Shown in pieces: positions 40,632-60,802 of a stretch of 64,000 nt of DNA (its first letter is position 1; each line of letters starts with the position of its first letter). The DNA lies in the NCBI GenBank assembly GCA_031256435.1, contig JAIRQO010000061.1, positions 59,301-123,300 on the forward strand, given 5' to 3'. Made by a program: the position numbers and the translations under genes. Origin of the DNA: Cellulomonadaceae bacterium. Lineage in GTDB: Bacteria; Actinomycetota; Actinomycetes; Actinomycetales; Cellulomonadaceae. The notes below the pieces were generated by a model that was given only the letters and a program-made list of their open reading frames with translations, made no database searches and was not told the DNA's origin.

Positions 40632-41816
40632 CTATTCCATTAACTCGTGCTTGATGGTACCAAAATATGAAAGCGCATGCTCTATGCATACATCCATATT
40701 GTAATACCGGAACTCGGCCAAACGCCCACAGAGGTAGAGGTTTCGGTAGTTATCGGCAATCTTACGATACTGTGTGTACAATTCCTTCGAGTCCGAAGTC
40801 AGAACCGGATAGTAAGGGATTCGAGACTCTGCGTCAGGACTTTCAGGATCGTGAGCAACTGGCCACTCGGTCACTGTTGTTGTCCCTGTCACTGAGGCGT
40901 GCTCTTTCATTAACTCTCGATAATCCGTTGTACGGATATATCCGTCCGCTTGGGGATAAGAGATGATTTCGCACGGTAACGGATTCGGATTGTCGAAATG
41001 GCGATAAGTAAAACGGAGTGACCGATATGGCAGTAACCCCAGACGGTACCCGAATAACTCGTCGATGCATCCGGTGTAGATGAGACACTCTGTATTTTTC
41101 TTGTCCCATAGTACCTGATCATCATTGAACGAAATACGATCGGTTGCGTCAGTCTCCAATTCTATGGATATTCGCGGATGATCCAACATAGAATGGAATA
41201 GAGAAGTGAACCCATCCTTGGGTAGGTATTGGAAATCCTTGTTAAGATATCGCGTGTCATATCCCATCGCCATTGGGACTCGATCTAGCACTGAACGATC
41301 AATCAACTCTGGTGGAATACCCCACATCTTCGAAGTGTACGTGCGGTATGCCTTCTCAAATAGCAGATTGCCGTAATCGCGTATGTCCGATTCCTCGTTA
41401 TCAAGTAACTCAAGTATCGGTACGCGATCTCGTCCACGAAACTGTTCTCGAAATTTTCGATATAACTGTGCCGCTCGCTTTGGTCCAACAAATTGTCGAA
41501 CTGTAGTAAAGTTGAATGGCAGTTGCATATACTTACCGTCAATATAACTCAATAAATGACAATCAAATGGGAATAATTCCGAATACTGACCAAGAAATTC
41601 AATGACCCGATAGGCGTTAGTGTTAAGAATATGTGGTCCATACCGCTGCACTAGCACGCCGTTGTTGTCACGTGAATCAAACATATTGCCGCCAATATGC
41701 GGACGACGCTCCACAACAAGAACGTCACGCTGGCACTCCTCAGCGATTTTCCTCGCGAGAATAGATCCACTGAAACCGGATCCGACCACGATCACACGTT
41801 CAGACACAATATCCAC
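40632..41816 (-). CDS. glf: UDP-galactopyranose mutase
   Basis: VVGSGFSG, HIGGNMFD, YGPHI, YTG.ID, YRSLRF, GRLAEFRYYNMD. Confidence 0.93.
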   Translation of the reverse strand: MDIVSERVIVVGSGFSGSILARKIAEECQRDVLVVERRPHIGGNMFDSRDNNGVLVQRYGPHILNTNAYRVIEFLGQYSELFPFDCHLLSYIDGKYMQLPFNFTTVRQFVGPKRAAQLYRKFREQFRGRDRVPILELLDNEESDIRDYGNLLFEKAYRTYTSKMWGIPPELIDRSVLDRVPMAMGYDTRYLNKDFQYLPKDGFTSLFHSMLDHPRISIELETDATDRISFNDDQVLWDKKNTECLIYTGCIDELFGYRLGLLPYRSLRFTYRHFDNPNPLPCEIISYPQADGYIRTTDYRELMKEHASVTGTTTVTEWPVAHDPESPDAESRIPYYPVLTSDSKELYTQYRKIADNYRNLYLCGRLAEFRYYNMDVCIEHALSYFGTIKHELME

Positions 41817-42119
41817 CCTTCAACCGGTGCTTTGTGGTTACTTTGAACCACTTGATTTTCCTCCAAGTACTAGGCTCTTATGGTACTAGTCCGCCCTGCG
41901 AGACGTGCCTGCAAACCCGATCGACGACCGATGTGCGACTCAGAATCTATCAATCAATTCTAGCGGGGGGATATCTTCCGTCATGACGTTGTTTTCCCTA
42001 CAACTCTGGGAATCGCGTCTCAGAACGCAATATGGAGATTAGACAGTCGGTCGTCGGTTCGTTCGGCGGGCTTTACGCAATCCCGGGACACTGTCCAACA
42101 CATCTGCCAGACTTGGCTC

Positions 42120-42977
42120 ATGAGCAAAGAAGAGGATAAGGCACTTGTACTCGTCACGGGAGCCCAAGGATTTCTTGGCCAAGCCCTCGTCCCACGCCTA
42201 CTAGACGCAGGTGCAAACGTCATCGCTTGTGATTTCAGTGTGGACAAAGTTGATACGCGAGCCACCGCTCTTGCCGGAAACATTTTTGATCCCGATTCGA
42301 TCTCTCCAGATTCGGCAGGGAACCCCACGCACCTGGTACACCTCGCGTGGCAGGATGGCTTTGTCCTCAACTCAGACGCTCACATGCGGAATGTATCGGC
42401 GCACTATGGTTTCCTCATGCGGTTCATTAGTGGTGGCTGCACCAACGTATCTGTCATGGGAACCATGCATGAGGCAGGCTACATTGAAGGTGCTATCGAC
42501 GAAAACACCGTATGCGTTCCACTGAATGAGTACGGTGTTGCAAAGAACGCACTTAGGCAGTCGATGCTCCTAAGGACAACGTCCCTCGATGTTTGTTTCA
42601 AGTGGCTCCGCGCCTATTACATTGTGAGCAATACCGGAATTGGAGAGAACATCTTTGCCAAAATTATCCGTGCTGCCCGAGACGGCAAGACCACCTTCCC
42701 CTTCACCACCGGTAAGACGAAGTATGACTTCATCTCTATTGAGGACCTAGCCGACCAAATCACCGCGGCGGTTCTCCAGACGGAAGAGGCTGGCATCATC
42801 AACGTGTGTTCTGGCAACCCGGTGTCATTGGCTGATCGAATTGAGCAATTTATCACCGAGAACAACCTTGATATTTCTCTGGACTACGGAGCGTTCCCAG
42901 ATCGCCCCTTCGATTCACCCATTACCTATGGTGATGCCACCCGTATCCAGAAGATCATGGGAACCAACGCGACGTGA
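42120..42977 (+). CDS. NAD-dependent epimerase/dehydratase family; candidate dTDP-4-keto-sugar reductase
   Basis: VTGAQGFLG, HLAWQDGF, GTMHE, YGVAK, YDFISI. Confidence 0.85.
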   Translation: MSKEEDKALVLVTGAQGFLGQALVPRLLDAGANVIACDFSVDKVDTRATALAGNIFDPDSISPDSAGNPTHLVHLAWQDGFVLNSDAHMRNVSAHYGFLMRFISGGCTNVSVMGTMHEAGYIEGAIDENTVCVPLNEYGVAKNALRQSMLLRTTSLDVCFKWLRAYYIVSNTGIGENIFAKIIRAARDGKTTFPFTTGKTKYDFISIEDLADQITAAVLQTEEAGIINVCSGNPVSLADRIEQFITENNLDISLDYGAFPDRPFDSPITYGDATRIQKIMGTNAT

Positions 42978-43158
42978 TCGATGACAGCACCCAGATCAGC
43001 CCCACCACTTACACACAATTCCTGACAGACCCGGATGCCTGCTACCCCCTTCAGAAACCCACTACCAACCTATTTGACGACCGCTACCCACTCGGCCTGA
43101 TCGGCAGTTGTCGTCTTCATAGGAACCCATTGCAAGCCGATGGCATAGGTTGCGTCTT

Positions 43159-44724
43159 ATGGTCTTGATCCACCTCCCGGTCACCGGTATCACGTCAGAT
43201 GTGCTGGTAGACGCTCTTCTCCGTAAACAGTACTTCCCCAACATCAAGAAGACCTCTGGCGAGGAACTTCCTCCGTACTTCTCGTCTGAGAGCCTGACCG
43301 ATGCGGCTGCTGCCGATCTGCTAAATCTGGAAAGTCGCGACCGTGGTGTCGTGCGATTCGGCACCAGGAAATTCGACGGTCTTGTTCGACCGATGGGCTT
43401 GCCGCATCCAGTGGCACATGTTCGGCTGGTCAACCACTTAGGGAAGTACTGGACACATCTCGATGCTCGGCTTGGAAGTGAACAGAGCAAGATTGCTCCT
43501 CGACACCACGATGACGGTCGCGTACTGACGATGGACTACGACGACCAACTCACTGAGAGTAACGCCCAGACCCAGGCTGCCACCGGTCGACGTTTCGTTG
43601 TGAAGGCGGACATCAGTAACTGCTTCGGCTCTATCTACACCCACGCTGTCGATTGGGCTCTACGAGGTCGGGACGCCGCACGCCGAGGACGTCGGGACAA
43701 CTCCTGGGAGCACAAACTCGATCTTCAACTCCAGCGTTGCAACGGAGGGGAGACGAAGGGCATCAACATCGGTCCGGCAGTCTCGAACATCGTCGCCGAG
43801 TTCATCCTCCAGGAGGTTGACCTAAAGTTGGCTGGTATTCTCGCGACAGCCTTTCCCCGTAGCGGACTCCAATTCACTCGCAACATCGACGACTACACGT
43901 TGTCCTGCGATACGAACGATCAAGCCGAACTCTTCCTTACGGCGCTCGGGCAAGAACTTGCTCACTTCCGCTTGTCCCTCAATGGTCGGAAGACTTCAGT
44001 TCAGCCCACAGTTGGCGGGATCGGCGAACGATGGATCGCAGATATCCACCTCCGACTGCCGGACCCAACGGAGGCCGAGAAAGCAGTGCGGTTCGTACAG
44101 TGGCTCGGGTATCATGCCGATGACGTCCCGGGCAAGTCGGTGGCCCGTTACGGCGCCAAGACGTTAGTTAAGGAACGCCTCAAGACTGGTCAAGCCGATG
44201 AATCGGACCTAATACTCGCAGACGAGTTACTGCGCCTGGCGTTCCACAGACCAGAAACGCTCTGTTTTGCCGTCCAACACCTCGAATGGTCAGGGTCCAA
44301 GTTTGACGGCAATAACAGGGTGCGCCTAGGGCATTCGCTTCACCAACTACTCGAACAGGCAGCCCAGCGTCGAGAGACCGACACTGCACTTTGGGCGATG
44401 CGCGGTCTTGAATCACTTAGCCGCACTGAAGAACTCAACTCGAAGTCTACGAGGGATGCCCTCATCGCACTGGAAGACGACCTCGTCTGGCTGGTCCTGG
44501 CACACCTCCACCGGGACGGCATGAACGAGGTTGCCACTGCCGCCGAATTGCTGAACGCAGGAAACAACGGAGACGTACCCGAAGACATCGTCGAGGAGCA
44601 CTGGCTCGCCCGTTACGAACTGCATCGAACTGAGCGGCTTCAGGAAGTCAACCTCTCGAAGTTCGAGAAGCAGTGGTTCAAGAAGGCCATCAACCACTCC
44701 GTGTCATTCAGCATCCTCACCTAG
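43159..44724 (+). CDS. Antiviral reverse transcriptase, DRT4 (UG15)-like
   Basis: LLRKQYFP..ELPPYFSS N-terminus, RPMGLPHP, KADISNCFGSIYTHAVDWA, GINIGPAVSNIVAE, RNIDDY catalytic motif, helical C-terminal domain ending HWLARYEL..VSF. The ORF track starts at TTG 43150. Confidence 0.85.
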   Translation: MVLIHLPVTGITSDVLVDALLRKQYFPNIKKTSGEELPPYFSSESLTDAAAADLLNLESRDRGVVRFGTRKFDGLVRPMGLPHPVAHVRLVNHLGKYWTHLDARLGSEQSKIAPRHHDDGRVLTMDYDDQLTESNAQTQAATGRRFVVKADISNCFGSIYTHAVDWALRGRDAARRGRRDNSWEHKLDLQLQRCNGGETKGINIGPAVSNIVAEFILQEVDLKLAGILATAFPRSGLQFTRNIDDYTLSCDTNDQAELFLTALGQELAHFRLSLNGRKTSVQPTVGGIGERWIADIHLRLPDPTEAEKAVRFVQWLGYHADDVPGKSVARYGAKTLVKERLKTGQADESDLILADELLRLAFHRPETLCFAVQHLEWSGSKFDGNNRVRLGHSLHQLLEQAAQRRETDTALWAMRGLESLSRTEELNSKSTRDALIALEDDLVWLVLAHLHRDGMNEVATAAELLNAGNNGDVPEDIVEEHWLARYELHRTERLQEVNLSKFEKQWFKKAINHSVSFSILT

Positions 44725-45204
44725 CCGCATTCCGTCCCACCGAGTACCCAATGAATGTCGACGCACTCAAGCCCCGTGATATGTTCTGTTCCAATACCCG
44801 GCGCGAACGGCAATACCTTTGTTCCAGCGTACGTGTGGAACAAGGAGTTGCAGTGGCAGTCGCTGCGTAGGTACATCACCTGCCTGGTCGCCAGCATCCA
44901 TTGCAACGCCCGGAACGCCACCCACTTCCTGAGAGCCATCAATATCCAGCAAACGAAGGGCTCCCTATGCACTCTCTCGGCACGTAGCATCCTTCGACGG
45001 GCAAAACAGCGCCTTATGACGCTACAACGGCTTCTAGACTCCCTCATCCGTTATTGGAGACCCCTGGTATGGACTCCCTCACTCAGCGAGTGCTGCCGTC
45101 AGTGGAGAACAAGCACAAAGATAGGCAGTAGCGCTGCACGGAATCCTCCCAGAAATGGTAATTTTCCATGCTGACCGCAGAACTCACTACAATAGTTACC
45201 ACAG

Positions 45205-45780
45205 TTACCACGTGGGCTGGTTGTCCTCGATTGTGAAGTTCACATCTGAATCCTTGAGAAGCGGCGCATCCATGTCCTTCTTTGAGATGATCGGATCGTC
45301 GATACCCCAATCAAAGCCAATGTCTGGGTCATTGAATGCGATCGCTCGGTCATCAGGACCGTTATACGGCTCATCAACCTTGTAAAGAACCTCGCAGTGA
45401 TCCGTGAGAGTCATAAACCCGTGAGAGAAACCAGACGGAATCCAAATTTGCTTGTGGTTATCTTCAGTCAACTCCACGGCAACCCACTTGGTGTAGGTTG
45501 GTGATCCTTTGCGTAGATCCACAGCAACGTCCAGAATTGCACCGCGCACGCAGCGTACTAACTTGATTTGGGGGGTGGGGTTGTTCTGGAAGTGGTGGGC
45601 CCGGATTGTGCCCTTCTTAATGGAGTAACTATGGTTATCCTGGACAAATACTGTGTTGATGCCCAGTTTGGCCTGAGTACGGGCCGAATAGGTCTCCGAG
45701 TAATATCCGCGATAATCCTCAAAGTAGTCCGGTTCAAGGATCTTGACGTCAGGAATCTCTAAATCTGTCATCTTCAACAT
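45205..45780 (-). CDS. rmlC: dTDP-4-dehydrorhamnose 3,5-epimerase
   Basis: [50 protein letters not shown]. Confidence 0.93.
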
Positions 45781-45944
45781 GGTTCCATTGTGCGGCAGCA
45801 CGCCCCAATTCATGGGTTCGCGCACCGCCCGCGCCATGCGTGCAATGCACTCTACCGAATCGCCCATTCCGCTGGCTTGAACAGCAGCGCGCCAGTGACG
45901 TGTTGCCCTGGCTCCCTCCGAGTTGTGATGCCACAATGGTAGCC

Positions 45945-46844
45945 ATGCGTGGCATTATTCTGGCCGGTGGCTCTGGTACCCGGCTTCACCCCATCACCAT
46001 GGGCGTGAGCAAGCAACTCGTTCCGGTGTATGACAAACCCATGATCTATTACCCGCTCAGCACATTGATGCTGGCAGGCATCCAGGACATCTTGATCATC
46101 ACCACCCCCCACGATGCTCCGCAATTTGAGCGGCTACTCGGTGACGGTAGCCAGTTCGGCATCAACCTGACCTTCACCGTCCAGGCAGAGCCAAACGGAC
46201 TCGCCCAAGCCTTCGTTCTGGGCGCTGATCACATCGGCAATGACAATGTTTCCCTGGTACTGGGTGACAACATTTTCTGGGGTCCCGGTATGGGCAACCG
46301 TCTCACCCGCTGGCGAGATGTTGACGGTGGAGCCGTGTTTGCCTACCAAGTGGCGGATCCGCGCGAATACGGCGTGGTGGACTTTGATGATCAAGGCATC
46401 GCCTTATCTATCGAGGAAAAGCCCCAGCAACCGAAGTCCAACTACGCCGTCCCCGGACTCTATTTCTATGAGAACTCCGTGGTGGACTTTGTGAAAACCA
46501 TGAAGCCCTCAGCCCGTGGTGAATATGAGATCACAGATGTGAACCGTCACTACCTTGAGGAGGGACGCCTCCACGTTGAGGTTTTCCCACGCGGTGTTGC
46601 CTGGTTAGACACTGGATCCTTTGAATCCCTCCACGAGGCCAGTTCCTTTGTCCGCACCATCGAAAACCGACAAGGAATGAAGGTGGGTGTTCCGGAAGAA
46701 GTAGCCTGGCGCAAGGGATTCATTTCCGATGAGGATCTCCTGGCCCGTGGTGAGTTACTCCGCAAATCTGGCTATGGAGAGTACCTCATCAGGTTGCTAG
46801 ATCTTCCCCATGATCTCCCCGCCTACCGGCCCCCACAGGCATGA
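45945..46844 (+). CDS. rmlA: Glucose-1-phosphate thymidylyltransferase
   Basis: [33 protein letters not shown]. Confidence 0.96.
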
Positions 46845-49350: not shown

Positions 49351-50937
49351 ATGGAATCTGCTGCGGCGCGTGATTGGCGTTCCCGGTGGCGCTCTCGTTG
49401 GAGCTCAAACTGGGGGGTTGCTGCCATGCTGGCGGGGGTGCTTGCCGTGAGTGGCCTGGTGGCGGCACCGCCTGCTGGCGCAAGCCCTACCGCGCTGGTT
49501 GGTGGTGTAGCCGTCCGTGCCGCAAAGAACAGTTTTGAGGGCGGCAGTGTCACCATCTCCGGACCTGCCAAAGTAGGCCAGAAACTCAAAGCCAGGGTCA
49601 CGGGCGTCTTTCCGAAGCCGAGCGCGGTGACGTATCAGTGGTACCGCAGCGGGAAACGCATCAAGGGTGCCACCTCGACGAGCTACCGCCTCAGTGCGGC
49701 TGATGCTGGCCGTGTCATCCGGGTGAAAGCCACCTTGACGAAGGATGGGTATCGCGAGCGCACCTTGGAGGAAACGGCCCGCGTGGCCGAAGGACGTTTC
49801 ACTGTGGGAAAGCTTTCCTATTCCGGGCGCCGCCAAGTGGGGTCAACACTCACGGTACACCGCCCCTCCGTGTCACCGCGTCCCACGCGGATCCAGTATC
49901 AATGGGTGCGAGACGGCAACAACATCCGCGGGGCTACGAGTAAGCGGTACACCCTCACGGCTCAGGACATGAACACCAAGGTGTGGGTGAGGGCAACGGT
50001 GTCACGCTCTGGATATCAGGATAAGGCTCGCCAATCCTGGAAGGGTGGTGTGATCGATCCACTGGAGTTCCGCGGAGGATCCGCCACCGTAGTGAACAAC
50101 CCCATGGTGGGACTGTACGTGAAGGCGCAGCCAGCACAGTTTGATCCTGCCCCTAGCAAGTACTCGTACCAATGGCTTCGTGGAGGACGAGCCATTGATG
50201 GCGCAACGAACAAGACGTACAGGCTCGCAGCCGATGATAAAGGGAGACGAATAACCGTCAGAGTGCGTGCCGAGCGCGCTGGGTATCGCGCTTCCTCGGT
50301 GACATCAGCGCCGGTGACTGTGCAGTCCACCTACTCGCTAGACGTCCTGGCTTCCATTCCCATTAAACCCAGGGACACCGGTGGTACCTATAGCAGGTCC
50401 TCGTTCGGCGATTCCATGTGGTGGGACCTTGACGGAACGGGATGTACCACCCGGCAGAAAATCCTGCACCGTGACCTACAGAACGTTGTCCTCCGCTCCA
50501 ACGGGTGTTCTGTGGAATCAGGGGTACTGTTTGATCCCTATTCCGGTGTGACCATTCACCACACCGCTGGCGCCAAGACGGCTTCTGGCGCCAACGTGGT
50601 GCAGATTGACCACGTGGTCCCCGTTTACCAGGCGTGGATGACGGGGGCACGAACGTGGACCCAGCAGAAACGCGAACGGTTCAATCAAGATCCGGCAAAC
50701 CTTCGCGCAACGTCTGCTGCCATGAACGAAGCCAAGGGAGGCCAGCGTGCCGACCAGTGGATGCCGCCCCGAAAAAGTGCTCACTGTGAGTATGTGGGCA
50801 TTCAGACTGCGGTGAAGGAGGAGTACGGGTTGTGGATGCCTCAGGCCGAACACGAGTTCATCGCCCGCATTCTGGCTGGCTGCCCAGCCGATACTGTCAA
50901 GATGATTCAGAAGCCGCTGCCGGGTGCGCCGTATTAA
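49351..50937 (+). CDS. Secreted protein: three Ig-like (YQW) repeats + HNH nuclease (DUF1524-like)
   Basis: Signal region (APPAGA), YQWYRSGKRIKGAT-type repeats, QIDHVVP..AW..GA..NL..N..K HNH motifs. Confidence 0.88.
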   Translation: MESAAARDWRSRWRSRWSSNWGVAAMLAGVLAVSGLVAAPPAGASPTALVGGVAVRAAKNSFEGGSVTISGPAKVGQKLKARVTGVFPKPSAVTYQWYRSGKRIKGATSTSYRLSAADAGRVIRVKATLTKDGYRERTLEETARVAEGRFTVGKLSYSGRRQVGSTLTVHRPSVSPRPTRIQYQWVRDGNNIRGATSKRYTLTAQDMNTKVWVRATVSRSGYQDKARQSWKGGVIDPLEFRGGSATVVNNPMVGLYVKAQPAQFDPAPSKYSYQWLRGGRAIDGATNKTYRLAADDKGRRITVRVRAERAGYRASSVTSAPVTVQSTYSLDVLASIPIKPRDTGGTYSRSSFGDSMWWDLDGTGCTTRQKILHRDLQNVVLRSNGCSVESGVLFDPYSGVTIHHTAGAKTASGANVVQIDHVVPVYQAWMTGARTWTQQKRERFNQDPANLRATSAAMNEAKGGQRADQWMPPRKSAHCEYVGIQTAVKEEYGLWMPQAEHEFIARILAGCPADTVKMIQKPLPGAPY

Positions 50938-51247: not shown

Positions 51248-52939
51248 CTATTGCTTGGGGAACTTGAGGCCAGCATGATACTTGACACCGGGGCCTCGCG
51301 ATCTTTCAAACTCCTTCTTGATGATCTCACGTTTCTGTAGATCGGCCAAGATATTGCGAGCTGCATTCATCTCCACATCAAACATCCGACGCACTGTTTG
51401 GTTTGTGATGAACTGGTACTCCCGAATATGTTGAATGACCTTGTTATCAATGCTGTCATTTGTTCGGCGATGGTACCGAACCGCAACTCCTAGACCAGTG
51501 AGCGCCAGCCCCGATAGACCATAGTTGGGAAAGGCTGCGTGCGATGTTCTGCGCGAGGACTCTATCAATCCTTCTGAAGCCATTCTGTTGAGGGTCCGCT
51601 GTGCGTTTGCAGGTGGGCGTTGAATCACGGGGGCAACATCGCCTGCATTAACCTGCCGGACTTCACACAACCTATCCAGAATAAGCAACACCTCAATATC
51701 CGATGCAAACTCGTCGGCAAGGTCAGATTGGACATACCGAACGTAAGCGTCACTCCCTTCCCCGCCAACAATGTCAACCGTGACCATCGATTCGCTATCG
51801 ATGAACGTTGGCGGCTCCTTACCATTGAGCAGCAGGACACGATATGCCCGGTCCACCCCTTGACCAGATCGCTCAGCCAAGCCTAGGCCTGTGATCACTT
51901 CCAGCAACCTCGTATTCCGCGGCGTTGAGGGATAACTGAGAATATTGGCAGCGGTCACACCGAACACCAGACTTCCCGGACTTGTGATCCGAAGATTCGC
52001 AGGTGATTGCTCAATGTCGACTGATCCGTGGCGCTCGTAATCCCTATGGACGAAGGCATTCACAACAAGTTCACGGACTGCTCCTGATGGGTAATCTTCA
52101 AGAACTAATTGCTGCCCGCCTGACACATTCAAAGGTCGCGATGTTTTTCTGGCATCCAACAGCCCGAGGAGGTGCTCAACTGCATCCAAGAGGGGTCGCT
52201 GCTCACGCACCCGTAATGACGATTCGGACCCTTGTCTGGGCCGGTACTGGTAGGAGTATCCATGATTTGGAACAACTCGATTGATGTCATCAACATCTCC
52301 CACAAGGAGGAGTCCTGCTTTAGTCAACTTACCGGTGTCCGTAGATAACCGTAGGTCCCGCAGTACTGCCTCGTCGTCCTGTGCAGCCAACTCCCCCCGG
52401 CCTGCGCCTCGCAACAACCGGCGAAGCCGGGATAGATCCTCTCCGGAATACCGTGTGACCTCGGTAACCTCTGCAGACCAATCGTAGAGTCCGCGAGCAG
52501 CCAACGCTTGCTTCTGTGCTTCCGGTGGAAACGGCTCGCACGAGCTCCCAACACGCACTGTTGCGGTACCTGCGGCATTGGAGTAGATCACCGCACCCTT
52601 GGGAACAGTCACCTCAAGTAGCCGTTTCCCATTCACGAAATGCGTTGCCACAGGCACGGATAACGATGGCCGTGTCCGATCAAAAATCCCCTTGATCGCA
52701 ACTTCCTCCGTCAACCGGTCGCTCACTCCGAGAATCGCTTCCTCGCCCTTGAGTCTGTCGTGGACACCAACAATGAGCATGCCACCGGTAGCGTTTGCAA
52801 GGCAAACAACAACATCTGCCATAGACTCCAAGGTGCGTTTCAGGGACTCGCCTTCCTGTTTGCACTCCAATGATGTCGATTCAATCTCGTCAGCACACGC
52901 TCCTCCTTGGATTGCCTCCAGCGCCCCCATGAACTCCAT
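51248..52939 (-). CDS. Schlafen/AlbA_2 domain + HATPase_c_4 + winged-HTH protein
   Basis: ESTSLECK..VVCLANATGG.L.VGV.D, RELVVNAFVHRDY, ITSPG, PRNTRL..GL.ERSGQG, C-terminal wHTH. Confidence 0.88.
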   Translation of the reverse strand: MEFMGALEAIQGGACADEIESTSLECKQEGESLKRTLESMADVVVCLANATGGMLIVGVHDRLKGEEAILGVSDRLTEEVAIKGIFDRTRPSLSVPVATHFVNGKRLLEVTVPKGAVIYSNAAGTATVRVGSSCEPFPPEAQKQALAARGLYDWSAEVTEVTRYSGEDLSRLRRLLRGAGRGELAAQDDEAVLRDLRLSTDTGKLTKAGLLLVGDVDDINRVVPNHGYSYQYRPRQGSESSLRVREQRPLLDAVEHLLGLLDARKTSRPLNVSGGQQLVLEDYPSGAVRELVVNAFVHRDYERHGSVDIEQSPANLRITSPGSLVFGVTAANILSYPSTPRNTRLLEVITGLGLAERSGQGVDRAYRVLLLNGKEPPTFIDSESMVTVDIVGGEGSDAYVRYVQSDLADEFASDIEVLLILDRLCEVRQVNAGDVAPVIQRPPANAQRTLNRMASEGLIESSRRTSHAAFPNYGLSGLALTGLGVAVRYHRRTNDSIDNKVIQHIREYQFITNQTVRRMFDVEMNAARNILADLQKREIIKKEFERSRGPGVKYHAGLKFPKQ

Positions 52940-53129
52940 GGATCCACCTTAGTTTGATAGAGCGTGAAATTGCAACACTTCATCAAACTCAACTCAAATT
53001 GCGGCCATGTCGGCAACCAACAGAGGTACTCAGCCACAATCTGTTAACCGCTGTAGGCGTTGCACCTATTGCGATTGGGTCAAACCCTTTGCCACCGCAC
53101 CATTCGAGGTGGTGATGTTGCAAGGAGTA

Positions 53130-53226
53130 TCGTCGAGGATGGGGATTCGACAGACGTTCACTTCGAGCCTGGCTCAAGCGCCCGCCGAGTTTGACGAGGC
53201 GTAAGGATGTCACGCTTCATCAAACA
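53130..53226 (+). repeat. ~96-bp direct repeat, copy 2
   Basis: See 51123-51218. Confidence 0.9.
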
Positions 53227-53366
53227 CAAGTTAAACTATCAATACTCTCCCGACCGATCGCTTGGGAAACGTGGGCCAGTAGATACTGACATTTTTCCAT
53301 GCCAGTCTATGGCAGTTCAGCGCGTCAAGTATTGAGACGTGAGCCTCGTCCAGGAATGATCAGGTA

Positions 53367-54605
53367 ATGACAAGTCTCGTGAATAAGTTCCGGAAAACAC
53401 GGAGTAGGAGGAGACGCGGGACGCCTGCATCGACAGAGAACCGGATCATGGTTGCTGATTTTGACTCCGTTCGTCAGGCGGAACTGTGGAGCACCTTGGG
53501 GCCCTACTCTACGATCTCGGAACTCAAATCATGCCTTCGTGTTGCGGACTTGATTGTCGGTGACACCGTGCTCACTGCCCGCCAAGTGCTTGATGGAGTG
53601 TTCTTCCTGTTCCTTGGCGTAGGCGGTGTTCGTGACATCCTGGGCTGTGATGCCGGGGCTGAACTACCGGTCCTGGTGTCGCGCCTGGAGAGTGAGGGCA
53701 CGGTTGGCGCCGTACTGGAGAACCTCAACAACAAACATGATTTCTTGTGGTCTTCCACGCCTCTGCTGCGGGAGCTCGGGTGGTCTGCTGAACGCATTGC
53801 TGCGGCGCGGGCCGAGTGGGTGCGCGCCTGTGACCACGGCTTGGTGAGGCACATTACTGTAGACGGTCACAGCCTAGGTCAACTCTGGGAACCCTTAGCC
53901 GCAACCATGAAGAGTCCGTTCCCACGTGGCTCCGCAGAGGATGATGACATCAGAAACCTCAAACGCTCTGCGGCATTCTCGACGATAGCTACGCTGGAGT
54001 CCACTCGCGGACCTGAGTATTGTGCCGCGATGCGGCAAGCATATTCGTCGCGGTACAACTTGGCGATTGCCCGCCAACACCAAGCGGATCTCCTGGAATT
54101 GGGCACCACATCTGCTGCGGAGATGGGTGTTGAAGCCACCTCCCAAAGGCCACACTTGGAGAAGAACCTTGACAGAAACGTTGCCGACACTCCCTTATCA
54201 ATATCGGGCTCCATCGTCGAGACAGTTCGGAATATGCCTTCGGCGCGGTACGCGACGGTAAGCAGACAAACCCGTACGGCGAAAGACCAGTGGACTCACG
54301 GGAAGCACGTCAACGCCATACGAAATGTGGCCTTCGCTGTTCACCGCAACGCCGATGGGTACAATGAAACCCGAGGGCATGCCATCTGGTCAGGATTATG
54401 GCGCATATGCGTTGCCGCTGGTGGTGGAGTCCTGGGATTCCTGTCCGATTTTGGCACCGGGCGAAGCGCGGCAATCATTCTGGCCGTCACGGTCCTCGTG
54501 ATGACGCTTCCATGGGGTGACATCGCCGATTTGTGGCGGATCCGGAGCACATCCATGGACGCGGTTATTCGATTAGGAGGCATGAGTGAACACGCAAAGA
54601 GTTGA
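53367..54605 (+). CDS. Uncharacterised protein with two C-terminal hydrophobic helices
   Basis: 412-aa ORF; hydrophobic segments IWSGLWRICVAAGGGVLGFL and AAIILAVTVLVMTLPW; overlaps the NUDIX start by 20 nt. Confidence 0.8.
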   Translation: MTSLVNKFRKTRSRRRRGTPASTENRIMVADFDSVRQAELWSTLGPYSTISELKSCLRVADLIVGDTVLTARQVLDGVFFLFLGVGGVRDILGCDAGAELPVLVSRLESEGTVGAVLENLNNKHDFLWSSTPLLRELGWSAERIAAARAEWVRACDHGLVRHITVDGHSLGQLWEPLAATMKSPFPRGSAEDDDIRNLKRSAAFSTIATLESTRGPEYCAAMRQAYSSRYNLAIARQHQADLLELGTTSAAEMGVEATSQRPHLEKNLDRNVADTPLSISGSIVETVRNMPSARYATVSRQTRTAKDQWTHGKHVNAIRNVAFAVHRNADGYNETRGHAIWSGLWRICVAAGGGVLGFLSDFGTGRSAAIILAVTVLVMTLPWGDIADLWRIRSTSMDAVIRLGGMSEHAKS

Positions 54606-55221
54606 TGGTTACAAGGCACCCGTTGGTGTCTCGATCGACGATGATGTGGATAGTGATGCGTTGAAGGTGGCGAAAGCCGCCAGTCCCACCGGCGTCTACA
54701 CGTGGGATGGACCGCCGACGATCGAACTGGTCTCCCAGACCATTACGTGGCGTGGAGCCACGTGGTTACACCACATTCTTACCATGCAGGGCGGGTTGCC
54801 GGGGGTTGTGGTGATTGCCCGGCATCCTGACGGCATCATCGTCGAACGGCATTACCGTCCGGCAATAGATGCGTTGGGGTGGGAATTCCCCAGGGGATGT
54901 GGTGATCCAGAAGATTTCTGTGATGTCACCGAAGCTGAAGGGGCACTGGTCGCGGCGCGGCGCGAGTTACAGGAGGAAACGGGATGGGTGCTGGAGAACG
55001 CGGAGGTAGTTGGGACGTTCCACCCCGACTCCGGCATTGAAAATCTCACGATGTATGTGGTTGCGGGCGACGTTGCGGGCCGAGACGAGTCAATACTCGA
55101 CGAGATGGAGAAAACCGACCTGTTCACCTTTTCGACTGATGAGATTGGCTCGATGATCACCCGGGGCGAGATGCGGGACGGCATGACCCTAGCCGCCTGG
55201 GCGCTCTACCAGGGGCGGTAG
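54586..55221 (+). CDS. NUDIX hydrolase (ADP-ribose pyrophosphatase-like)
   Basis: HYRPA..WEFPRG, RRELQEETG Nudix box, RDGMTLAAW tail. Confidence 0.88.
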   Translation: MNTQRVDGYKAPVGVSIDDDVDSDALKVAKAASPTGVYTWDGPPTIELVSQTITWRGATWLHHILTMQGGLPGVVVIARHPDGIIVERHYRPAIDALGWEFPRGCGDPEDFCDVTEAEGALVAARRELQEETGWVLENAEVVGTFHPDSGIENLTMYVVAGDVAGRDESILDEMEKTDLFTFSTDEIGSMITRGEMRDGMTLAAWALYQGR

Positions 55222-55621
55222 CCCAGGGTGGGTGAGTGTGGTGGGCTCGCTGTTGCGTTTTCGCTCTTCTTCCCTGACACATTCGCACCGGAATAGAAAA
55301 GTGAGAACTACCGCCTCGATACCTACGTACAACGAGACATTGGACACAATTCGGTGCCGCGTGTGCCATATCATACACTTGTCCCAATTGAGGAAATTTG
55401 GAGAATGGAAGATTGTTACCATGCCACCGCTGATCGGGATGATCACCGAGAGATGCGATCATGGAGGCAACACCCGATTCACATTTGATGATGTTCCTCA
55501 AAGGCTTTCACCATGGCGTTAACGCGCCTGTCAAGGACCCAATCTGCGGTAACAGGTGCGGTGCAGCACTAGCGCGGCGCGCAGTGATCAGTACCATTTG
55601 GTTAGTTAGGAGGCTCTCACA

Positions 55622-56569
55622 ATGAGTGAGTTCGAGAAGCACGGCAACACACAAGTCGAGCAAGTTGTCATTGACGATGACGTCGTCCAGTTGCGTTTCG
55701 TTGATGAGGATGGTCAAGACCAGACCATCGAGGGCCATCTATTCGCACAGTCCGTTCAAGGTCTAGTTGAGTTCGTGTCCGAGATGGGCAAGGCGCGCGT
55801 GTTTGGCGAAGGCCCGGCCCCTGAGGTTCGTATCCGCCCTGTCAAAGAGGGATCGATCTGCATCGAAGCGGTACTGGAGTTCTACCAGGCCAATCAAGAG
55901 CTCATCCTCACCAGTAGCGGTGCGGCAGTCACTGAACTGTTGAGGGCTGGCATTCGACGATGGCGCGGTGCCGTTGTTGACTTCGAGTACTTGGACAACG
56001 ATAACGTCAAAGTCACCTGGAAGGACGGGACCGCTTCCGAGCTCCCAGCAAAAGCCTGGCACGAAGTCAACAGGCGGAACTCCAAGGCCCGCAAGGCTCT
56101 CGCCAAGGTTCAGGCACCGCTGTCGGGCGACGCCGATGTGATGGAAGTTCGCTATGCATCCAGGGCCGCCACGTCACAGCAAATCCTCGCGGAGCAACCC
56201 GAGTTGGCTGCCTCGATTGACGACTATCGGGCGACGGCCGCGGTCGACGATGTCCCTGAAGAGTTAGTGAACTACCACATAGATGTCGAAGCCCGACTCC
56301 GCTCCATCGACTTCGACAACGCCAACAAGTGGCGAATTGCAGCGCTTGGGCAGAGGCGAAACGCTACGATCGAAGATACGAAGTTCCTCAAGAAGGTGTC
56401 GAAGGGTTTAGCGCTTCATGACGATGATGTCTTCCGTGTGGACATCCGCGAGGACATCAAGGTGCCTGAAGCGGGAAATCGTACCACTAAGTGGACTGTC
56501 ACAAGAGTCACGAGGGTCAATAGCCGAGGAGAAAGTACCCGTGTCAGTGAGCCGACTAGCGAGGACTAA
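55622..56569 (+). CDS. Uncharacterised 315-aa protein
   Basis: GGAGG upstream, ATG start; IEGHLFAQSVQGL..VKEGSICI and ARLRSIDFDN..KWRI..ATIED..FL segments; no function recognised. Confidence 0.8.
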   Translation: MSEFEKHGNTQVEQVVIDDDVVQLRFVDEDGQDQTIEGHLFAQSVQGLVEFVSEMGKARVFGEGPAPEVRIRPVKEGSICIEAVLEFYQANQELILTSSGAAVTELLRAGIRRWRGAVVDFEYLDNDNVKVTWKDGTASELPAKAWHEVNRRNSKARKALAKVQAPLSGDADVMEVRYASRAATSQQILAEQPELAASIDDYRATAAVDDVPEELVNYHIDVEARLRSIDFDNANKWRIAALGQRRNATIEDTKFLKKVSKGLALHDDDVFRVDIREDIKVPEAGNRTTKWTVTRVTRVNSRGESTRVSEPTSED

Positions 56570-56765
56570 CGTGGTACTGCTCGCCATCGATGCTCTTGGC
56601 ATGATCGGTGGAACCGTCGGCGTGGGCTTCTCGCTCCACTCCGTCCTAAACGGTGGCAAGACATCCGCTGTGGTTGCCCTCGCCATTTCGGTGTTAATCG
56701 TAGTGGCAGCGGCCAGGGATTGGCGTCGCGAATGGCGACTTCGCTCTATGCTGCGAGAGCCTTAG
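56547..56765 (+). CDS. Small two-TM membrane protein
   Basis: Hydrophobic helices VVLLAIDALGMIGGTVGVGFSL and AVVALAISVLIVVAAA, basic tail; overlaps the upstream stop. Start could be 56571. Confidence 0.55.
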   Translation: MSRLARTNVVLLAIDALGMIGGTVGVGFSLHSVLNGGKTSAVVALAISVLIVVAAARDWRREWRLRSMLREP

Positions 56766-57138
56766 GACCAGACAACTCGAAGAAATGGCAGCAGGTACAC
56801 GACACGGAAGAATTTGATTGTATCCACTAGCACGGCCTGGCCAACGCGTGCGGCGGCTCCGCGGCCTAACTACTCGGTGCTGGGCCATGACGCGTTAGTG
56901 GCCGCAGGAGTGGACCCCATTGGCGATTGGGCCGAGCGCTTTGCCGTAGCAGCGCCCGAGGTGCTGGGGTTGTAGGCGCTCTCGTTGCGCGCGGGTTTAG
57001 GCCGGTGGCGTTCCCCGGAGGTGGCAGTGTTCTGTGTGGACATGAGAAATAAGAAAAACTAAGAATGAACAAGAAAGGCCGGGTTGCACTGCCTCAACCC
57101 GCTCAAATCGTCGGCTCGGGAATACCCGCGGTCACAAG

Positions 57139-59520
57139 TTACAACCTGGCACCGCCTGGCTTGGTGAAGCCTAGTGCGCGGTAGCCGGGGAGACGTTTGG
57201 GGAAGCGGGCGGCCAGGATGGGGCTGTGGGCGTCCACGTAATCATGGGCAATGGCGGTTTTCCCTGGATCGGCTGGACGTAGAATCCGCCCGGCCACCTG
57301 GAGCAGCGTGTTCTGCCAGGAAATGGGGGCAGCCAGGAACAGTGTGTCCAGCGCTGGAGCGTCGAATCCCTCGCCAACAAACTGGGTGGTGGCCACTAGG
57401 AGAATCCCTGACCCTCGTTTCGCCTCGTTGAGCCGCGTAACTACTTCCCGGACCTCCCGTGACTTCATGGAACCACGGAGCACCAACGCCTCGTGACCAC
57501 GCTCTGCAAGCAGGGCCACCAGAATGTCCACGTGCGCCCGCCGCGTGGTGGCCACCACACAGTTGCGTCCATTCAAGAGCGCGGCATCAACATCAGCCAC
57601 AATCTGGGCATTTCGTTCGTCGCAACGAACCATGGCGTCCGCGAGCGCCGCCATACCTGCGGGGTTGAGGGGGTCCACCTCTCCGCTAACAAACGAAGTC
57701 TCGTGGATTGTCAACTCCCGCACCCCTACGGTGGGTGATGCGCCTGTGATGTCAGCCAGAGTTCCGCGTACAGATTCCCCCAGGGTGTGCCTCACCGGTC
57801 CGAGTTGCCACCACACCACCTCGTCGAGTTTGTCCCTCCTGCGAGGCGTAGCCGTCAGCCCCAACCAATAGTGGGCGCTCACGGCCTTCATCGCATAGTC
57901 ATACGCTGGGGCAGCCACATTGTGGCACTCGTCCACAATCACCTGGCCATACCCAGCCAGCAATCCAGCAACGTCCTTGGCACGTGCCAGGGAAGGAAGC
58001 ATCGCAATGTCCACCACTCCCGTGAGTTTCCTACGGCCGCCGCCGTATTGTCCGGCTTTGATACCCAGGAATTCCGTGATACGCGCGCGCCACTGATCCG
58101 CCAGCGCCTTCCGGTTCACCAACACCACCGTGGACACAGCCCGCTCGGCTATTATCGCGCAGGCCATCACGGTTTTTCCTGTTCCGGGAGGCGCTACGAG
58201 CACACCATCGTCGTGCGCGAGCATGGCCCCTACAGCCTCGGCTTGCTCGTCACGAAGAGTGGTGTGGAGGATCACCTCGATCTCAGTGCCTCCCTCGCGC
58301 TCGTCGATCACTTCGAGACGTGAGCCTGAGGCCGTGACGATATCCGAAATCATCGCTCGTAACCCGCGGGGTACGACGAGAGTGTTCTGCAGGGTTTCAT
58401 TGTAACCCTGGATGAACCGTGGGGTCCCGTAGGTGGACTTGCGTAGCCGCATGAGTTCGTAGAACTTGGGATTGACCAGTGACGATGCGTGCTTGAGAGT
58501 TGACAGTGATTCGGGTGCGAGGTCCGCCATGTCCACCTCCAAGCCAGACTTGAGGTTCGCGTGAACCACCGGTGCCATGCGCGGATGGACCTTGGTGGCA
58601 CGAGACCGCTCCACCTGTGTGACTCCGGTGCCCACTGTGGCGTATCGCTCTAAACGGGCGAGATTGGTCACTTCAGCCGGAGACATCTTGCCGAGCGTGG
58701 ACAGAAACGACCACTGGTCCTCATAGGGTTCCAGGGTGGCCGGGTCAAGAAACACGGTGAGGCCATCCTCAACACGCCTCTTGTAGAGCGGTGCGGCAAT
58801 CAGGTTGCCCACCCCTCCCTGAGGAAGGACATCCTGACTGGGGAAGAACCGGTCATAGGATGTGAGGTTCATTGCTCCGCGCTGTTTGATGGCGTCATGC
58901 ATCAACACCGCACCCATTGCCCTGGCTTTCGCTGCCAGAATTGCCTCGGTGAAGAAGATCCATACGTGCGCGCCACGCCCTGACTGTGAGATCTCCAAAG
59001 CCGCTGGAACCCTCGCTGATCGTGCGGTTTTCAGATACGCCAAGGCGTCGAGCATGGCAGCAGTTCCGTCAAAATCTGCAGCGAGCCAGTGGCATGTGTT
59101 GTTGTCAAGTAGCGGATAGAGCCCGACGAACCGGTTGTTCACTCCGCGTAGGTGCGCTTCTATTACTTGCGGCGTGAGCGGTACTTTCGGGGTGAGGCGC
59201 TTGTTGAACCCTTGTTGGAAGCGCCCGCCCGCATACTCTGGAGACCAACCGCTAGTGCCTCTCCATGCTGATTCCCACCGTGTGGCAAAGATGTCCATCC
59301 GGCACCGGAATAGATCCATGTACAACGCGATCTTGGCCTCAGGCGAGGACGCCATTGTCACGAGACCGTGGGAGCTCTGAGGGATGGCTGGTTGCTCGGG
59401 GCCGGGCGCTGATGGCTGCGGTTGGAGTGCAAGTAGCCGCGATAGTTGGGTGTTTTCGGCATGCAGCCTGGCGATCTCCTGACGTGCAAGCGCCAGCTCC
59501 CGAGCGGCATCGTCATCCAT
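57139..59520 (-). CDS. AEP primase-polymerase (TOTE-associated type) fused to an SF2 helicase
   Basis: AEP motifs AADFD, SQSGRGAH, YDRFFP..GNLIAAPL; helicase APPGTGKT, DECH, TATP, QVAGRILR. Confidence 0.9.
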   Translation of the reverse strand: MDDDAARELALARQEIARLHAENTQLSRLLALQPQPSAPGPEQPAIPQSSHGLVTMASSPEAKIALYMDLFRCRMDIFATRWESAWRGTSGWSPEYAGGRFQQGFNKRLTPKVPLTPQVIEAHLRGVNNRFVGLYPLLDNNTCHWLAADFDGTAAMLDALAYLKTARSARVPAALEISQSGRGAHVWIFFTEAILAAKARAMGAVLMHDAIKQRGAMNLTSYDRFFPSQDVLPQGGVGNLIAAPLYKRRVEDGLTVFLDPATLEPYEDQWSFLSTLGKMSPAEVTNLARLERYATVGTGVTQVERSRATKVHPRMAPVVHANLKSGLEVDMADLAPESLSTLKHASSLVNPKFYELMRLRKSTYGTPRFIQGYNETLQNTLVVPRGLRAMISDIVTASGSRLEVIDEREGGTEIEVILHTTLRDEQAEAVGAMLAHDDGVLVAPPGTGKTVMACAIIAERAVSTVVLVNRKALADQWRARITEFLGIKAGQYGGGRRKLTGVVDIAMLPSLARAKDVAGLLAGYGQVIVDECHNVAAPAYDYAMKAVSAHYWLGLTATPRRRDKLDEVVWWQLGPVRHTLGESVRGTLADITGASPTVGVRELTIHETSFVSGEVDPLNPAGMAALADAMVRCDERNAQIVADVDAALLNGRNCVVATTRRAHVDILVALLAERGHEALVLRGSMKSREVREVVTRLNEAKRGSGILLVATTQFVGEGFDAPALDTLFLAAPISWQNTLLQVAGRILRPADPGKTAIAHDYVDAHSPILAARFPKRLPGYRALGFTKPGGARL
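57142..57180. repeat. Imperfect direct repeat, copy 1 (3' end of the helicase gene)
   Basis: Core GGCTTGGTGAAGCC at 57158-57171, identical at 61907-61920. Confidence 0.7.
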
Positions 59521-59931
59521 GGGTGGATGGTAACCGGAGTCTGTATAACGTGGGGATGGGTCCGTGAATCACGTGTTTCTGTGCATGTCACTGCGGCGTG
59601 GGACTACTGGCCGGCTTGTGCTCCTGCAGATAGCCGACTCCTGCGGGTGCGCTGACCTCCGCAGGATGACAATGGGTTTCTGGATGCCCGGTCAGCACTG
59701 GACTGGAGCGCGCATTCCCCTGGCATCGAACCGATTTCCCTTGTAGCAAGCATGACCCATTGAGTCGCGCTGTCAGGCATGACACGACTCTCGCTGGTCT
59801 AGGGGTTCCCCTGCCCAGATACCTTGAAAAGACACGCATTGCAACCCCAACGTGATGAAATTTGACACATATTGGTGCCTCATGGCACAATTGCGCTGGA
59901 TAATGGCATCATTTATGTTACAGTTTCGGTC

Positions 59932-60708: not shown

Positions 60709-60711
60709 AGA

Positions 60712-60795
60712 ACCCCCGGGCATAGCCCGGGGGTGACTCCATGTATAAAACGAGGGACCTTGTCCTCGTATTGACCTATATGCTACCCCAAGGGG
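60712..60795 (+). ncRNA. Candidate structured leader or RNA upstream of the Abi gene
   Basis: Perfect 10-bp hairpin (60712-60734), bulged hairpin (60750-60769) and CCCC-AA-GGGG (60786-60795). The first hairpin could simply be a terminator. Confidence 0.4.
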
Positions 60796-60802
60796 GAACT
60801 AA

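What the first reader, a model, noticed from the sequence alone, without database searches (positions are those of the whole stretch)
43159..44724. DRT4-like antiviral reverse transcriptase inserted alone among sugar-nucleotide genes, with an NIDD catalytic motif
Seen: a ~520-aa RT with the SIYTH.V.WA motif, RNIDDY in place of YxDD and a helical C-terminal domain, sitting between the epimerase gene and rmlC with no integrase or IS. Known: DRT type 4 (UG15) is a single-gene anti-phage RT related to Abi-type template-independent polymerases. Inferred: an actinobacterial DRT4 placed in the locus that builds the probable phage receptor. The subtype call is from remembered motifs. The 180-nt upstream gap has only weak structure.
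Basis: partly seen in the sequence, partly recalled or inferred. Interest (0 to 1): 0.7.

Follow-up and report, generated by a model that had tools for sequence, protein, structure and literature searches.

The report
Divergent DRT4 antiphage reverse transcriptase
This is an intact single-gene antiphage reverse transcriptase of the already well-studied DRT4 family, from a rare deep-branching lineage, sitting with a broken restriction-enzyme gene inside a horizontally acquired cell-wall sugar locus of a termite-gut actinobacterium; the 'odd' NIDD motif is a common natural variant.

Summary
An intact 521-aa ORF (43159-44724, +; alternative TTG start at 43150) carries SIYTHAVDWA, RNIDDY and a helical C-terminal half.

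It is DRT4-like on every test:
- PADLOC's best match is Drt4 (348 bits, E 2e-104; Drt6 259).
- NCBIfam's best match is Drt4 (320.7 bits, below the 450 equivalog cut-off).
- The AlphaFold model (pLDDT 93) superposes best on solved UG15/DRT4 structures (TM 0.82-0.88).
- The priming Tyr, the catalytic Asp residues and the RNase His/Asp pair are all kept.

- NIDD is not special. Asn is the majority residue in one large canonical DRT4 subclade.
- The gene is not alone. A frameshifted, truncated DUF262/GmrSD relic starts 27 nt after its stop codon, and more defence-like genes lie 5-17 kb downstream.
- It belongs to a rare lineage (about 24 clusters; nearest relative 44% identical) that is sister to all canonical DRT4. 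It lacks the C-terminal sensor tail of the E. coli enzyme and differs at the purine-selecting residues.

Most likely mechanism, by homology: protein-primed, untemplated ssDNA synthesis that licenses an RNase on phage infection, giving abortive infection. It is a new member of a known kind, of modest interest.

The parts
43159..44724 (+). DRT4-family (UG15-like) class 1 UG/Abi reverse transcriptase gene, 521 aa (524 aa from the alternative TTG at 43150)
43537..43539 (+). Tyr130, equivalent to the priming Tyr125 of E. coli DRT4
   Evidence: Alignment to the PDB UG15 chain. Tyr in 24 of 24 clade members. Coordinates checked. Role taken from PMC12783706.
43642..43644 (+). His165 inside SIYTH, equivalent to the RNase His160 of E. 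coli DRT4. Its partner Asp191 (equivalent to Asp192) is at 43720-43722.
   Evidence: Role taken from preprint 10.64898/2026.10.21.760695.
43882..43893 (+). NIDD (Asn245-Ile-Asp247-Asp248), the polymerase catalytic motif. It is the YIDD 238-241 equivalent with Tyr replaced by Asn.
44029..44721 (+). Alpha-helical (alpha-Rep-like) C-terminal domain replacing the RT thumb. It ends 4 residues after the conserved VSF motif, so there is no C-terminal sensor tail.
   Evidence: AlphaFold secondary structure, Foldseek, tail-length comparison
42978..43158 (+). Upstream intergenic gap with no detectable structured RNA
44751..45060 (+). Relic of a DUF262/GmrSD_N (type IV restriction) gene. It holds only the first ~100 codons, carries at least two frameshifts (near 44786 and 44830), and is cut off before rmlC.
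   Evidence: PADLOC mREase_IV E 1.5e-5 on the longest frame. Pfam GmrSD_N E 0.0037 on the stitched frames. tblastn against plasmids hits annotated DUF262 proteins, E 3e-9 to 5e-9, 36-38% identity over residues 4-103. Frames.

Best explanation
The gene encodes a functional single-protein antiphage system of the DRT4 (UG15) family. It belongs to a rare lineage that branches beside all canonical DRT4.

By homology to the E. coli enzyme, the protein would assemble as a hexamer (not tested here). It would use Tyr130 as a covalent primer and Asp154/Asp247/Asp248 to make short, untemplated single-stranded DNA. During infection, phage ssDNA-binding proteins and/or raised dNTP levels would act on that DNA-bound state and switch on an RNase site built from His165 and Asp191. 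RNA cleavage would then abort the infection.

What is shown here: family placement, fold, retention of every catalytic residue, lack of any partner gene or RNA, and defence-island context of the relatives. What is inferred: polymerase activity, RNase activity, oligomeric state, the trigger, and phage protection.

Because the 34-residue C-terminal tail that E. coli DRT4 needs for SSB recognition is absent, and the purine-selecting residues differ (Q23 to Ile32, N124 to Asp129, N285/D286 to Gly292/Glu293), both trigger recognition and product composition may differ from the E. coli model.

The gene, together with a now-decayed DUF262 restriction gene, lies in a low-GC, strain-specific wall-polysaccharide/defence block and was probably acquired horizontally.
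For: - Profiles: PADLOC Drt4 348 bits, E 2e-104, over residues 14-521, against Drt6 259. NCBIfam's best match is Drt4, 320.7 bits.
- Solved structures by sequence: UG15/DRT4 chains at E 6e-50.
- Fold: AlphaFold pLDDT 93.4, pTM 0.92. Foldseek's top matches are UG15/DRT4 (9l9s, 9vdo) at TM 0.82-0.88, then DRT6 at 0.81, then Abi-P2/AbiK at 0.6-0.7.
- Residues: R80, Y130, D154, H165, D191, D247, D248, N278 and K281 are conserved in all 24 clade members. Their roles come from PMC12783706 and two preprints.
- Tree: rooted on an Abi-P2, the topology is (DRT6, (this clade, canonical DRT4)), with clade support 98.
- Context of relatives: they sit beside methylase/helicase/ApeA or SNF2/DUF1156/HEPN-DUF499 genes, i.e. 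in defence islands.
- Single-gene architecture: no neighbour is conserved across six homologue loci. No Rfam match and no upstream structure.
- Acquisition: absent from 40 of 40 related genomes. The block is at 48-58% GC against a genome average of 61.4%.
Against: - The NCBIfam equivalog cut-off (450 bits) is not met.
- The node joining this clade to canonical DRT4 has only moderate support (SH-aLRT 78), with a single long outgroup branch.
- The C-terminal sensor tail is absent.
- The E. coli trimer-interface residue F140 is Thr here.
- Tyr238, which stacks on the primer's 3' base in E. coli DRT4, is Asn here. I found no experiment on an Asn-type DRT4.
- The adjacent defence gene has decayed, so selection on this islet may be relaxed. 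No close relative exists for a dN/dS test.
- There are no expression data.
Confidence: 0.8

Rival explanations
1. The 24-member clade is a separate UG/Abi class 1 lineage, neither DRT4 nor DRT6 in the strict sense. It would have its own trigger and perhaps its own DNA product, so the DRT4 mechanism transfers only in outline.
For: - It is sister to all canonical DRT4 rather than nested within them. Canonical DRT4 excluding it has support 96, and the joining node only 78.
- Profile scores are 350-420 bits, against 530-590 for canonical members.
- It falls below the NCBIfam cut-off.
- It has no C-terminal tail.
- The base-selecting residues differ.
Against: - All catalytic, priming and RNase residues are shared.
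- The fold matches DRT4 best.
- The 02178-type canonical DRT4 also lack the tail, so the tail does not define the family.
Confidence: 0.15
2. The gene is an inactive or decaying remnant of a defunct defence islet. The frame is still open, but the protein no longer polymerises or protects.
For: - The gene immediately downstream is a frameshifted, truncated relic.
- Asn replaces the primer-stacking Tyr.
- An actinobacterial DRT4 hit in another genome carries an internal stop (L089).
Against: - The 521-codon frame is uninterrupted and keeps every invariant family residue.
- Asn at that position is the majority state in a large canonical subclade.
- The fold prediction is confident along the whole length.
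Confidence: 0.07
3. The RT worked as a two-gene system with the downstream DUF262/GmrSD nuclease and is now orphaned.
For: The relic's start codon lies only 27 nt after the RT stop, on the same strand.
Against: Six homologue loci carry six different downstream genes (ApeA, unknown proteins, ParB_N, none), and none of them is a DUF262 gene. DRT4 is sufficient alone in E. coli (PMC12783706).
Confidence: 0.04
4. It is a mobile retroelement RT (group II intron, retron or DGR).
For: Weak RT-core matches to group II intron and retron models, 33-37 bits.
Against: Those scores are far below their cut-offs. There is no intron, msr/msd or template-repeat RNA. It has no maturase or endonuclease domain. 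The helical domain is of the Abi type.
Confidence: 0.01

Closest known systems
E. coli DRT4 (UG15; PDB 9vdo, 9l9s, 21ou; PMC12783706; preprints 10.64898/2026.10.21.760695 and 10.64898/2026.10.27.754916)
   Same: - Single-gene architecture.
- RT fingers/palm plus an alpha-helical domain in place of the thumb (TM 0.82-0.88).
- Priming Tyr, the three catalytic Asp residues, Arg75/Asn271/Lys274 equivalents, and the RNase His/Asp pair.
- No ncRNA.
   Different: - Only 25-26% identity.
- NIDD instead of YIDD.
- No 34-residue C-terminal sensor tail.
- F140 is Thr145.
- The purine-contact residues are changed: Q23, N124 and N285/D286 become Ile32, Asp129 and Gly292/Glu293.
- It is in a sister clade, not the E. 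coli/Pseudomonas subclade.
Firmicutes/Campylobacter-type DRT4 (PADLOC PDLC02178 subclade, e.g. P0038, P0041, P0068)
   Same: Asn at the first position of the catalytic motif (31 of 51 representatives), no long C-terminal tail, and the same conserved core residues.
   Different: About 24-26% identity. It is a separate, well-supported clade (support 100). This gene scores only 245 bits on that sub-model, against about 700 for members.
DRT6 (UG12; PDB 9wy8)
   Same: Same overall fold (TM 0.81-0.85), the same class 1 UG/Abi architecture, and a shared SIYTH/xIDD core.
   Different: Lower profile score (259 vs 348 bits). DRT6 forms a separate clade (support 93) outside this clade plus DRT4. The residue aligned to the priming Tyr is not Tyr in the DRT6 representatives checked.
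AbiK / Abi-P2 (PDB 7r06-7r08)
   Same: Protein-primed, template-independent polymerases with a helical domain and hexameric assembly.
   Different: Much weaker similarity (TM 0.6-0.7; 100-110 bits). The priming site and the domain details differ.

Membership tests
DRT4 (UG15) | Best profile match is the Drt4 model and it covers the whole length | tested here: met
   PADLOC PDLC03752 scores 348 bits over residues 14-521 (profile positions 4-463 of 467). The next family, Drt6, scores 259.
DRT4 (UG15) | Reaches NCBIfam's curated equivalog cut-off for Drt4 (NF041749, 450 bits) | tested here: not met
   320.7 bits
DRT4 (UG15) | RT fingers/palm with the thumb replaced by an alpha-Rep helical domain, superposable on solved DRT4 | tested here: met
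   The model has pLDDT 93.4. Foldseek ranks 1-4 are UG15/DRT4 chains, TM 0.82-0.88, E 1e-28 to 1e-29.
DRT4 (UG15) | Priming tyrosine (Tyr125 in E. coli DRT4) | tested here: met
   Tyr130 aligns to it. It is Tyr in 24 of 24 clade members.
DRT4 (UG15) | Catalytic aspartates (D149, D240, D241) and dNTP-positioning R75/N271/K274 | tested here: met
   D154, D247, D248, R80, N278 and K281 are invariant columns.
DRT4 (UG15) | Tyr at the first position of YxDD (stacks on the primer's 3' base in E. coli DRT4) | tested here: not met
   It is Asn245 here. The position varies within bona fide DRT4 (Y, F, H, N, A) and is Asn in 31 of 51 of one subclade, so it is not family-defining.
DRT4 (UG15) | RNase His/Asp pair (H160, D192) | tested here: met
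   H165 and D191 are invariant in the alignment. RNase activity itself was not tested.
DRT4 (UG15) | Flexible C-terminal sensor tail (residues 507-540 of E. coli DRT4) | tested here: not met
   Only 4 residues follow the conserved VSF motif. The clade median is 5, against 33.5 in the E. coli/Pseudomonas subclade. The 02178 subclade also lacks the tail.
DRT4 (UG15) | Single-gene system with no ncRNA and no conserved partner | tested here: met
   No Rfam match. Upstream fold z +0.73. No neighbour is shared among six homologue loci.
DRT4 (UG15) | Phylogenetic placement within UG15 | tested here: inconclusive
   Rooted on one Abi-P2 sequence, the clade is sister to all canonical DRT4 (joining node SH-aLRT 78) and separate from DRT6. 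No UG14, UG30 or AbiK sequences were in the tree.
DRT4 (UG15) | Hexamer (dimer of trimers), protein-primed untemplated ssDNA synthesis, and phage protection | not testable with these tools
   This needs biochemistry and plaque assays. The E. coli interface residue F140 is Thr145 here.
DRT6 (UG12) | Best profile match is Drt6, and the protein clusters with DRT6 in the tree | tested here: not met
   Drt6 scores 259 bits here, against 413-560 for true DRT6 proteins. DRT6 is a separate clade with support 93.

The most novel reading that the evidence does not exclude
The 24-cluster clade is a third deep lineage beside DRT4 and DRT6. It has replaced the purine-selecting residues (Ile32, Asp129, Gly292/Glu293) and has no C-terminal sensor tail. 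It might therefore make an ssDNA of different composition and be licensed by a different phage cue than the SSB 'two-factor' recognition described for E. coli DRT4.
Probability: 0.15. Interest if true: 0.5.

Novelty: new member of a known kind. Interest (0 to 1): 0.3.

Why it matters
DRT4 has recently been dissected in detail, but only for one E. coli protein. This gene is an intact example from a sparsely populated sister lineage in Actinomycetota, where DRT4-like genes are rare (4 of 401 genomes sampled had a Drt4-model match at E <= 1e-30, and on follow-up one of those is a DRT6 and one an Abi-P2). It keeps the polymerase, priming and RNase residues but lacks the sensor tail and the purine-contact residues.

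That makes it a useful natural comparator for asking which parts of the E. coli mechanism are general. Its position, with other defence genes, inside a horizontally acquired wall-polysaccharide locus is a tidy example of defence genes and variable surface-polysaccharide genes sharing one block. It does not open a new kind of biology.

Tried and rejected
- Structured RNA in either flank: Rfam at E <= 1 over 41800-46000 found nothing. The upstream gap folds no better than shuffles. The promoter and terminator scans were at or below chance.
- Insertion scars: there are no convincing flanking direct or inverted repeats and no tRNA in the window.
- Empty-site comparison: neither the RT nor the neighbouring epimerase occurs in 40 related genomes, so no syntenic empty site exists to compare.
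- Conserved partner gene: tblastx of both flanks against eight loci from five homologues gave nothing meaningful, and a sixth homologue's locus shares no neighbour either.
- NIDD as a novelty: rejected after finding it to be common in canonical DRT4. A literature search for NIDD/NxDD in UG15 found nothing relevant.
- The 139-aa ORF at 44755-45174 as a real gene: rejected. It is one frame of a broken DUF262 fragment.

Full report
**Observation**

The window holds an uninterrupted + strand ORF from 43150 (TTG) or 43159 (ATG) to 44724, giving 524 or 521 aa. The public gene call for the identical protein is the 521-aa ATG version (P0003). Pfam RVT_1 matches above its cut-off (39.5 against 29.6 bits).

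The flanks are as described. An NAD-dependent epimerase/dehydratase gene lies at 42120-42977 (+), and rmlC lies at 45205-45936 (-). Beyond them are glf and large glycosyl/glycerophosphotransferase genes to the left, and rmlA, an NDP-hexose 2,3-dehydratase and an oxidoreductase to the right. No integrase, transposase or tRNA lies nearby.

**Family assignment**

- Against PADLOC, the best match is Drt4 (PDLC03752, 348 bits, E 2e-104) covering residues 14-521. Drt6 scores 259, RT_UG30 150 and AbiK about 110.
- NCBIfam's best match is the Drt4 equivalog (320.7 bits), but this is below its 450-bit cut-off.
- The best solved structures by sequence are the E. coli UG15/DRT4 chains (E 6e-50).
- An AlphaFold2 model built on 57 homologues is confident (pLDDT 93.4, pTM 0.92). 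Foldseek ranks UG15/DRT4 chains first (9l9s, 9vdo, 9vdv; TM 0.82-0.88, E about 1e-29), then DRT6 (9wy8; TM 0.81-0.85, E 1e-22), then Abi-P2/AbiK (TM 0.6-0.7).

So the whole protein, including the helical domain that replaces the RT thumb, has the DRT4/DRT6 fold.

**Functional residues**

I mapped the residues that recent work assigns functions in E. coli DRT4 (PMC12783706; preprints 10.64898/2026.10.21.760695 and 10.64898/2026.10.27.754916) through the HMMER alignment.

Kept:

| E. coli DRT4 | Role | This protein |
|---|---|---|
| Tyr125 | priming site | Tyr130 |
| D149, D240, D241 | metal ligands | D154, D247, D248 |
| R75, N271, K274 | dNTP positioning | R80, N278, K281 |
| H160, D192 | RNase pair | H165, D191 |

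All of these are invariant in my 57-sequence alignment and in 24 of 24 members of this gene's clade.

Different:

| E. coli DRT4 | Role | This protein |
|---|---|---|
| Tyr238 | stacks on the primer's 3' base | Asn245 |
| F140 | trimer interface | Thr145 |
| Q23, N124, N285/D286 | purine contacts | Ile32, Asp129, Gly292/Glu293 |

**The NIDD motif**

NIDD is not unusual. Among 200 family members the first motif position is Y, F, H, N or A. Asn occurs in 31 of 51 representatives of one subclade and in 3 of 24 of this gene's own clade. Asn-type proteins such as P0032, P0038, P0041 and P0068 score 680-740 bits on a PADLOC Drt4 sub-model (PDLC02178). They are bona fide DRT4 by profile. I found no experiment on an Asn-type enzyme.

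**Position in the family**

The nearest relative among 5.8 billion proteins is 44% identical. An exhaustive search of 1.84 billion representatives gives about 16 clusters above 270 bits, after which scores drop. The best match among 185,579 species genomes is about 31% identical over most of the protein (one short fragment reaches 40%).

A FastTree of 200 members puts the gene in a 24-member clade (support 99), apart from 166 canonical DRT4 and 10 proteins that PADLOC identifies as DRT6. An IQ-TREE run of 83 sequences, rooted on an Abi-P2 found in another actinobacterial genome, gives this topology:

(DRT6, (this clade, (02178-type DRT4, 02180-type DRT4)))

| Node | SH-aLRT |
|---|---|
| this clade | 98 |
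| canonical DRT4 | 96 |
| this clade + canonical DRT4 | 78 |
| DRT6 | 93 |

The gene therefore sits on the DRT4 side of the DRT4/DRT6 split, as a deep sister lineage. The support is moderate, there is a single long outgroup branch, and no UG14 or UG30 references were included.

**C-terminal tail**

In E. coli DRT4, residues 507-540 form a flexible tail that the Pausch-lab preprint reports as necessary for SSB (gp44) recognition and RNase activation. Here the protein ends 4 residues after the conserved VSF motif. The median tail length is 5 in this clade, 7 in the 02178-type, and 33.5 in the E. coli/Pseudomonas subclade. The tail-dependent step of the 'two-factor' model therefore cannot apply literally.

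**Single-gene status**

Rfam finds nothing in 41800-46000. The 181-nt upstream gap folds no better than shuffles (z +0.73). Loci of six homologues share no neighbouring gene with this locus or with each other. Where the contigs are long, the relatives sit among defence genes:

- P0010: an N6 methylase, ResIII/YagJ and SNF2 helicases, and ApeA.
- P0007: SNF2, DUF1156 and HEPN_Swt1/DUF499.

The 480 nt between the RT stop and rmlC are not empty. The longest frame there (44755-45174) hits PADLOC's type IV restriction model at E 1.5e-5. Reading across two frameshifts restores the DUF262 signature IPLFQRxYVW. The stitched 145 residues match Pfam GmrSD_N weakly (E 0.0037). By tblastn they match annotated DUF262 proteins on plasmids (E 3e-9 to 5e-9, 36-38% identity over residues 4-103).

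This is the first ~100 codons of a GmrSD-type gene. It begins 27 nt after the RT stop, is frameshifted, and is truncated. The RT thus came with, or sat beside, another defence gene that has since decayed.

**Wider context**

The genome is a 2.5-Mb, 88-contig assembly at 61.4% GC. The window's 16-61 kb region is at 48-58% GC and the RT at 57%. Neither the RT nor the adjacent epimerase occurs in 40 related genomes. Thymidine-kinase best hits are Actinomycetota (Micrococcales-like genera and Nocardioides), at about 60% identity. The only run that holds the sequence is a termite-gut metagenome.

Downstream, between rmlA/C and rmlB, lie these defence-like genes:

- a GmrSD_C plus Ig-like protein
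- a Schlafen/AlbA_2 protein
- a DUF7946/PDC-S42-like protein
- an AEP (TOTE)-helicase
- an Abi_2/PD-T4-5-like protein

Another note (e1-5258756) argues that the 2TM/Nudix pair in it serves wall-glycan synthesis, not defence. 'Defence genes interleaved with a variable wall-polysaccharide locus' is a fair description. That the polymer is a phage receptor is untested.

DRT4-model matches are rare in the phylum. Four of 401 genomes match at E <= 1e-30. One of these is the window's own genome, one carries an internal stop, one is a DRT6 and one an Abi-P2.

**Mechanism**

The most likely mechanism, by homology, runs as follows. The protein constitutively makes a short untemplated ssDNA covalently primed on Tyr130. 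Phage SSB-like proteins and/or a rise in dNTPs act on this state. This activates the His165/Asp191 RNase, and RNA cleavage aborts the infection. Every one of these steps is inferred here.

Shown here: family placement, fold, residue retention and the absence of partners. The missing tail and the changed base-contact residues mean that trigger recognition and product composition may differ from the E. coli enzyme.

**Verdict**

This is a real, intact DRT4-family gene from a rare sister lineage. It is a new member of a known kind, of modest interest.

Noticed in passing
window 44751-45060 (+): Frameshifted, truncated N-terminal fragment of a DUF262/GmrSD-type type IV restriction gene. It starts 27 nt after the RT stop and keeps the IPLFQRxYVW signature across a frameshift.
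   Followed up: yes
window 49351-50937 (+): 528-aa protein with weak Ig-like domain hits (below Pfam cut-offs) and a C-terminal GmrSD_C (DUF1524, HNH-like) domain, directly after the deoxysugar genes. It has no PADLOC match.
   Followed up: partly
window 51248-61534: A run of defence-like genes lies between rmlA/C and rmlB: Schlafen/AlbA_2 + HATPase_c_4 (51248-52939, -), DUF7946/PDC-S42-like (55622-56569), AEP-TOTE primase-helicase (57139-59520, -), and Abi_2/PD-T4-5-like (60803-61534).
   Followed up: partly
window ~16000-61000 (contig C25 75-120 kb): The whole wall-polysaccharide/defence block is at 48-58% GC against a genome average of 61.4%. The lowest values (45-49% per gene) are at the GT61/GT2/glf genes. 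This is consistent with horizontal acquisition in pieces.
   Followed up: partly
proteins P0045, P0049, P0052, P0058, P0064-P0067, P0069, P0070, P0073, P0074, P0080 (PDLC02178-type DRT4-like hits): In my alignment, 12 of 51 representatives of this subclade have His (FEMNHKNF) where E. coli DRT4 has the priming Tyr125. The literature reports that Tyr as absolutely conserved in 174 systems. This is either a one-residue alignment slip or a different priming residue.
   Followed up: no
PADLOC models PDLC02177 and PDLC02179 (named Drt4): These two 'Drt4' sub-models score 310-550 bits on proteins whose best match is Drt6 (P0078, P0345, P0077, L091). They score only 180-200 bits on this gene, so they appear to model the DRT6/UG12 lineage. 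This is a naming trap for automated calls.
   Followed up: partly
L089 (G420:C22:66501-67985): The best DRT4-model match in another actinobacterial genome (461.7 bits) carries an internal TAA stop, so it is probably a pseudogene.
   Followed up: no
L092 270-2952: In another Actinomycetota genome, an Abi-P2-type RT (626 bits) starts 2 nt after a type I restriction specificity-subunit gene.
   Followed up: no
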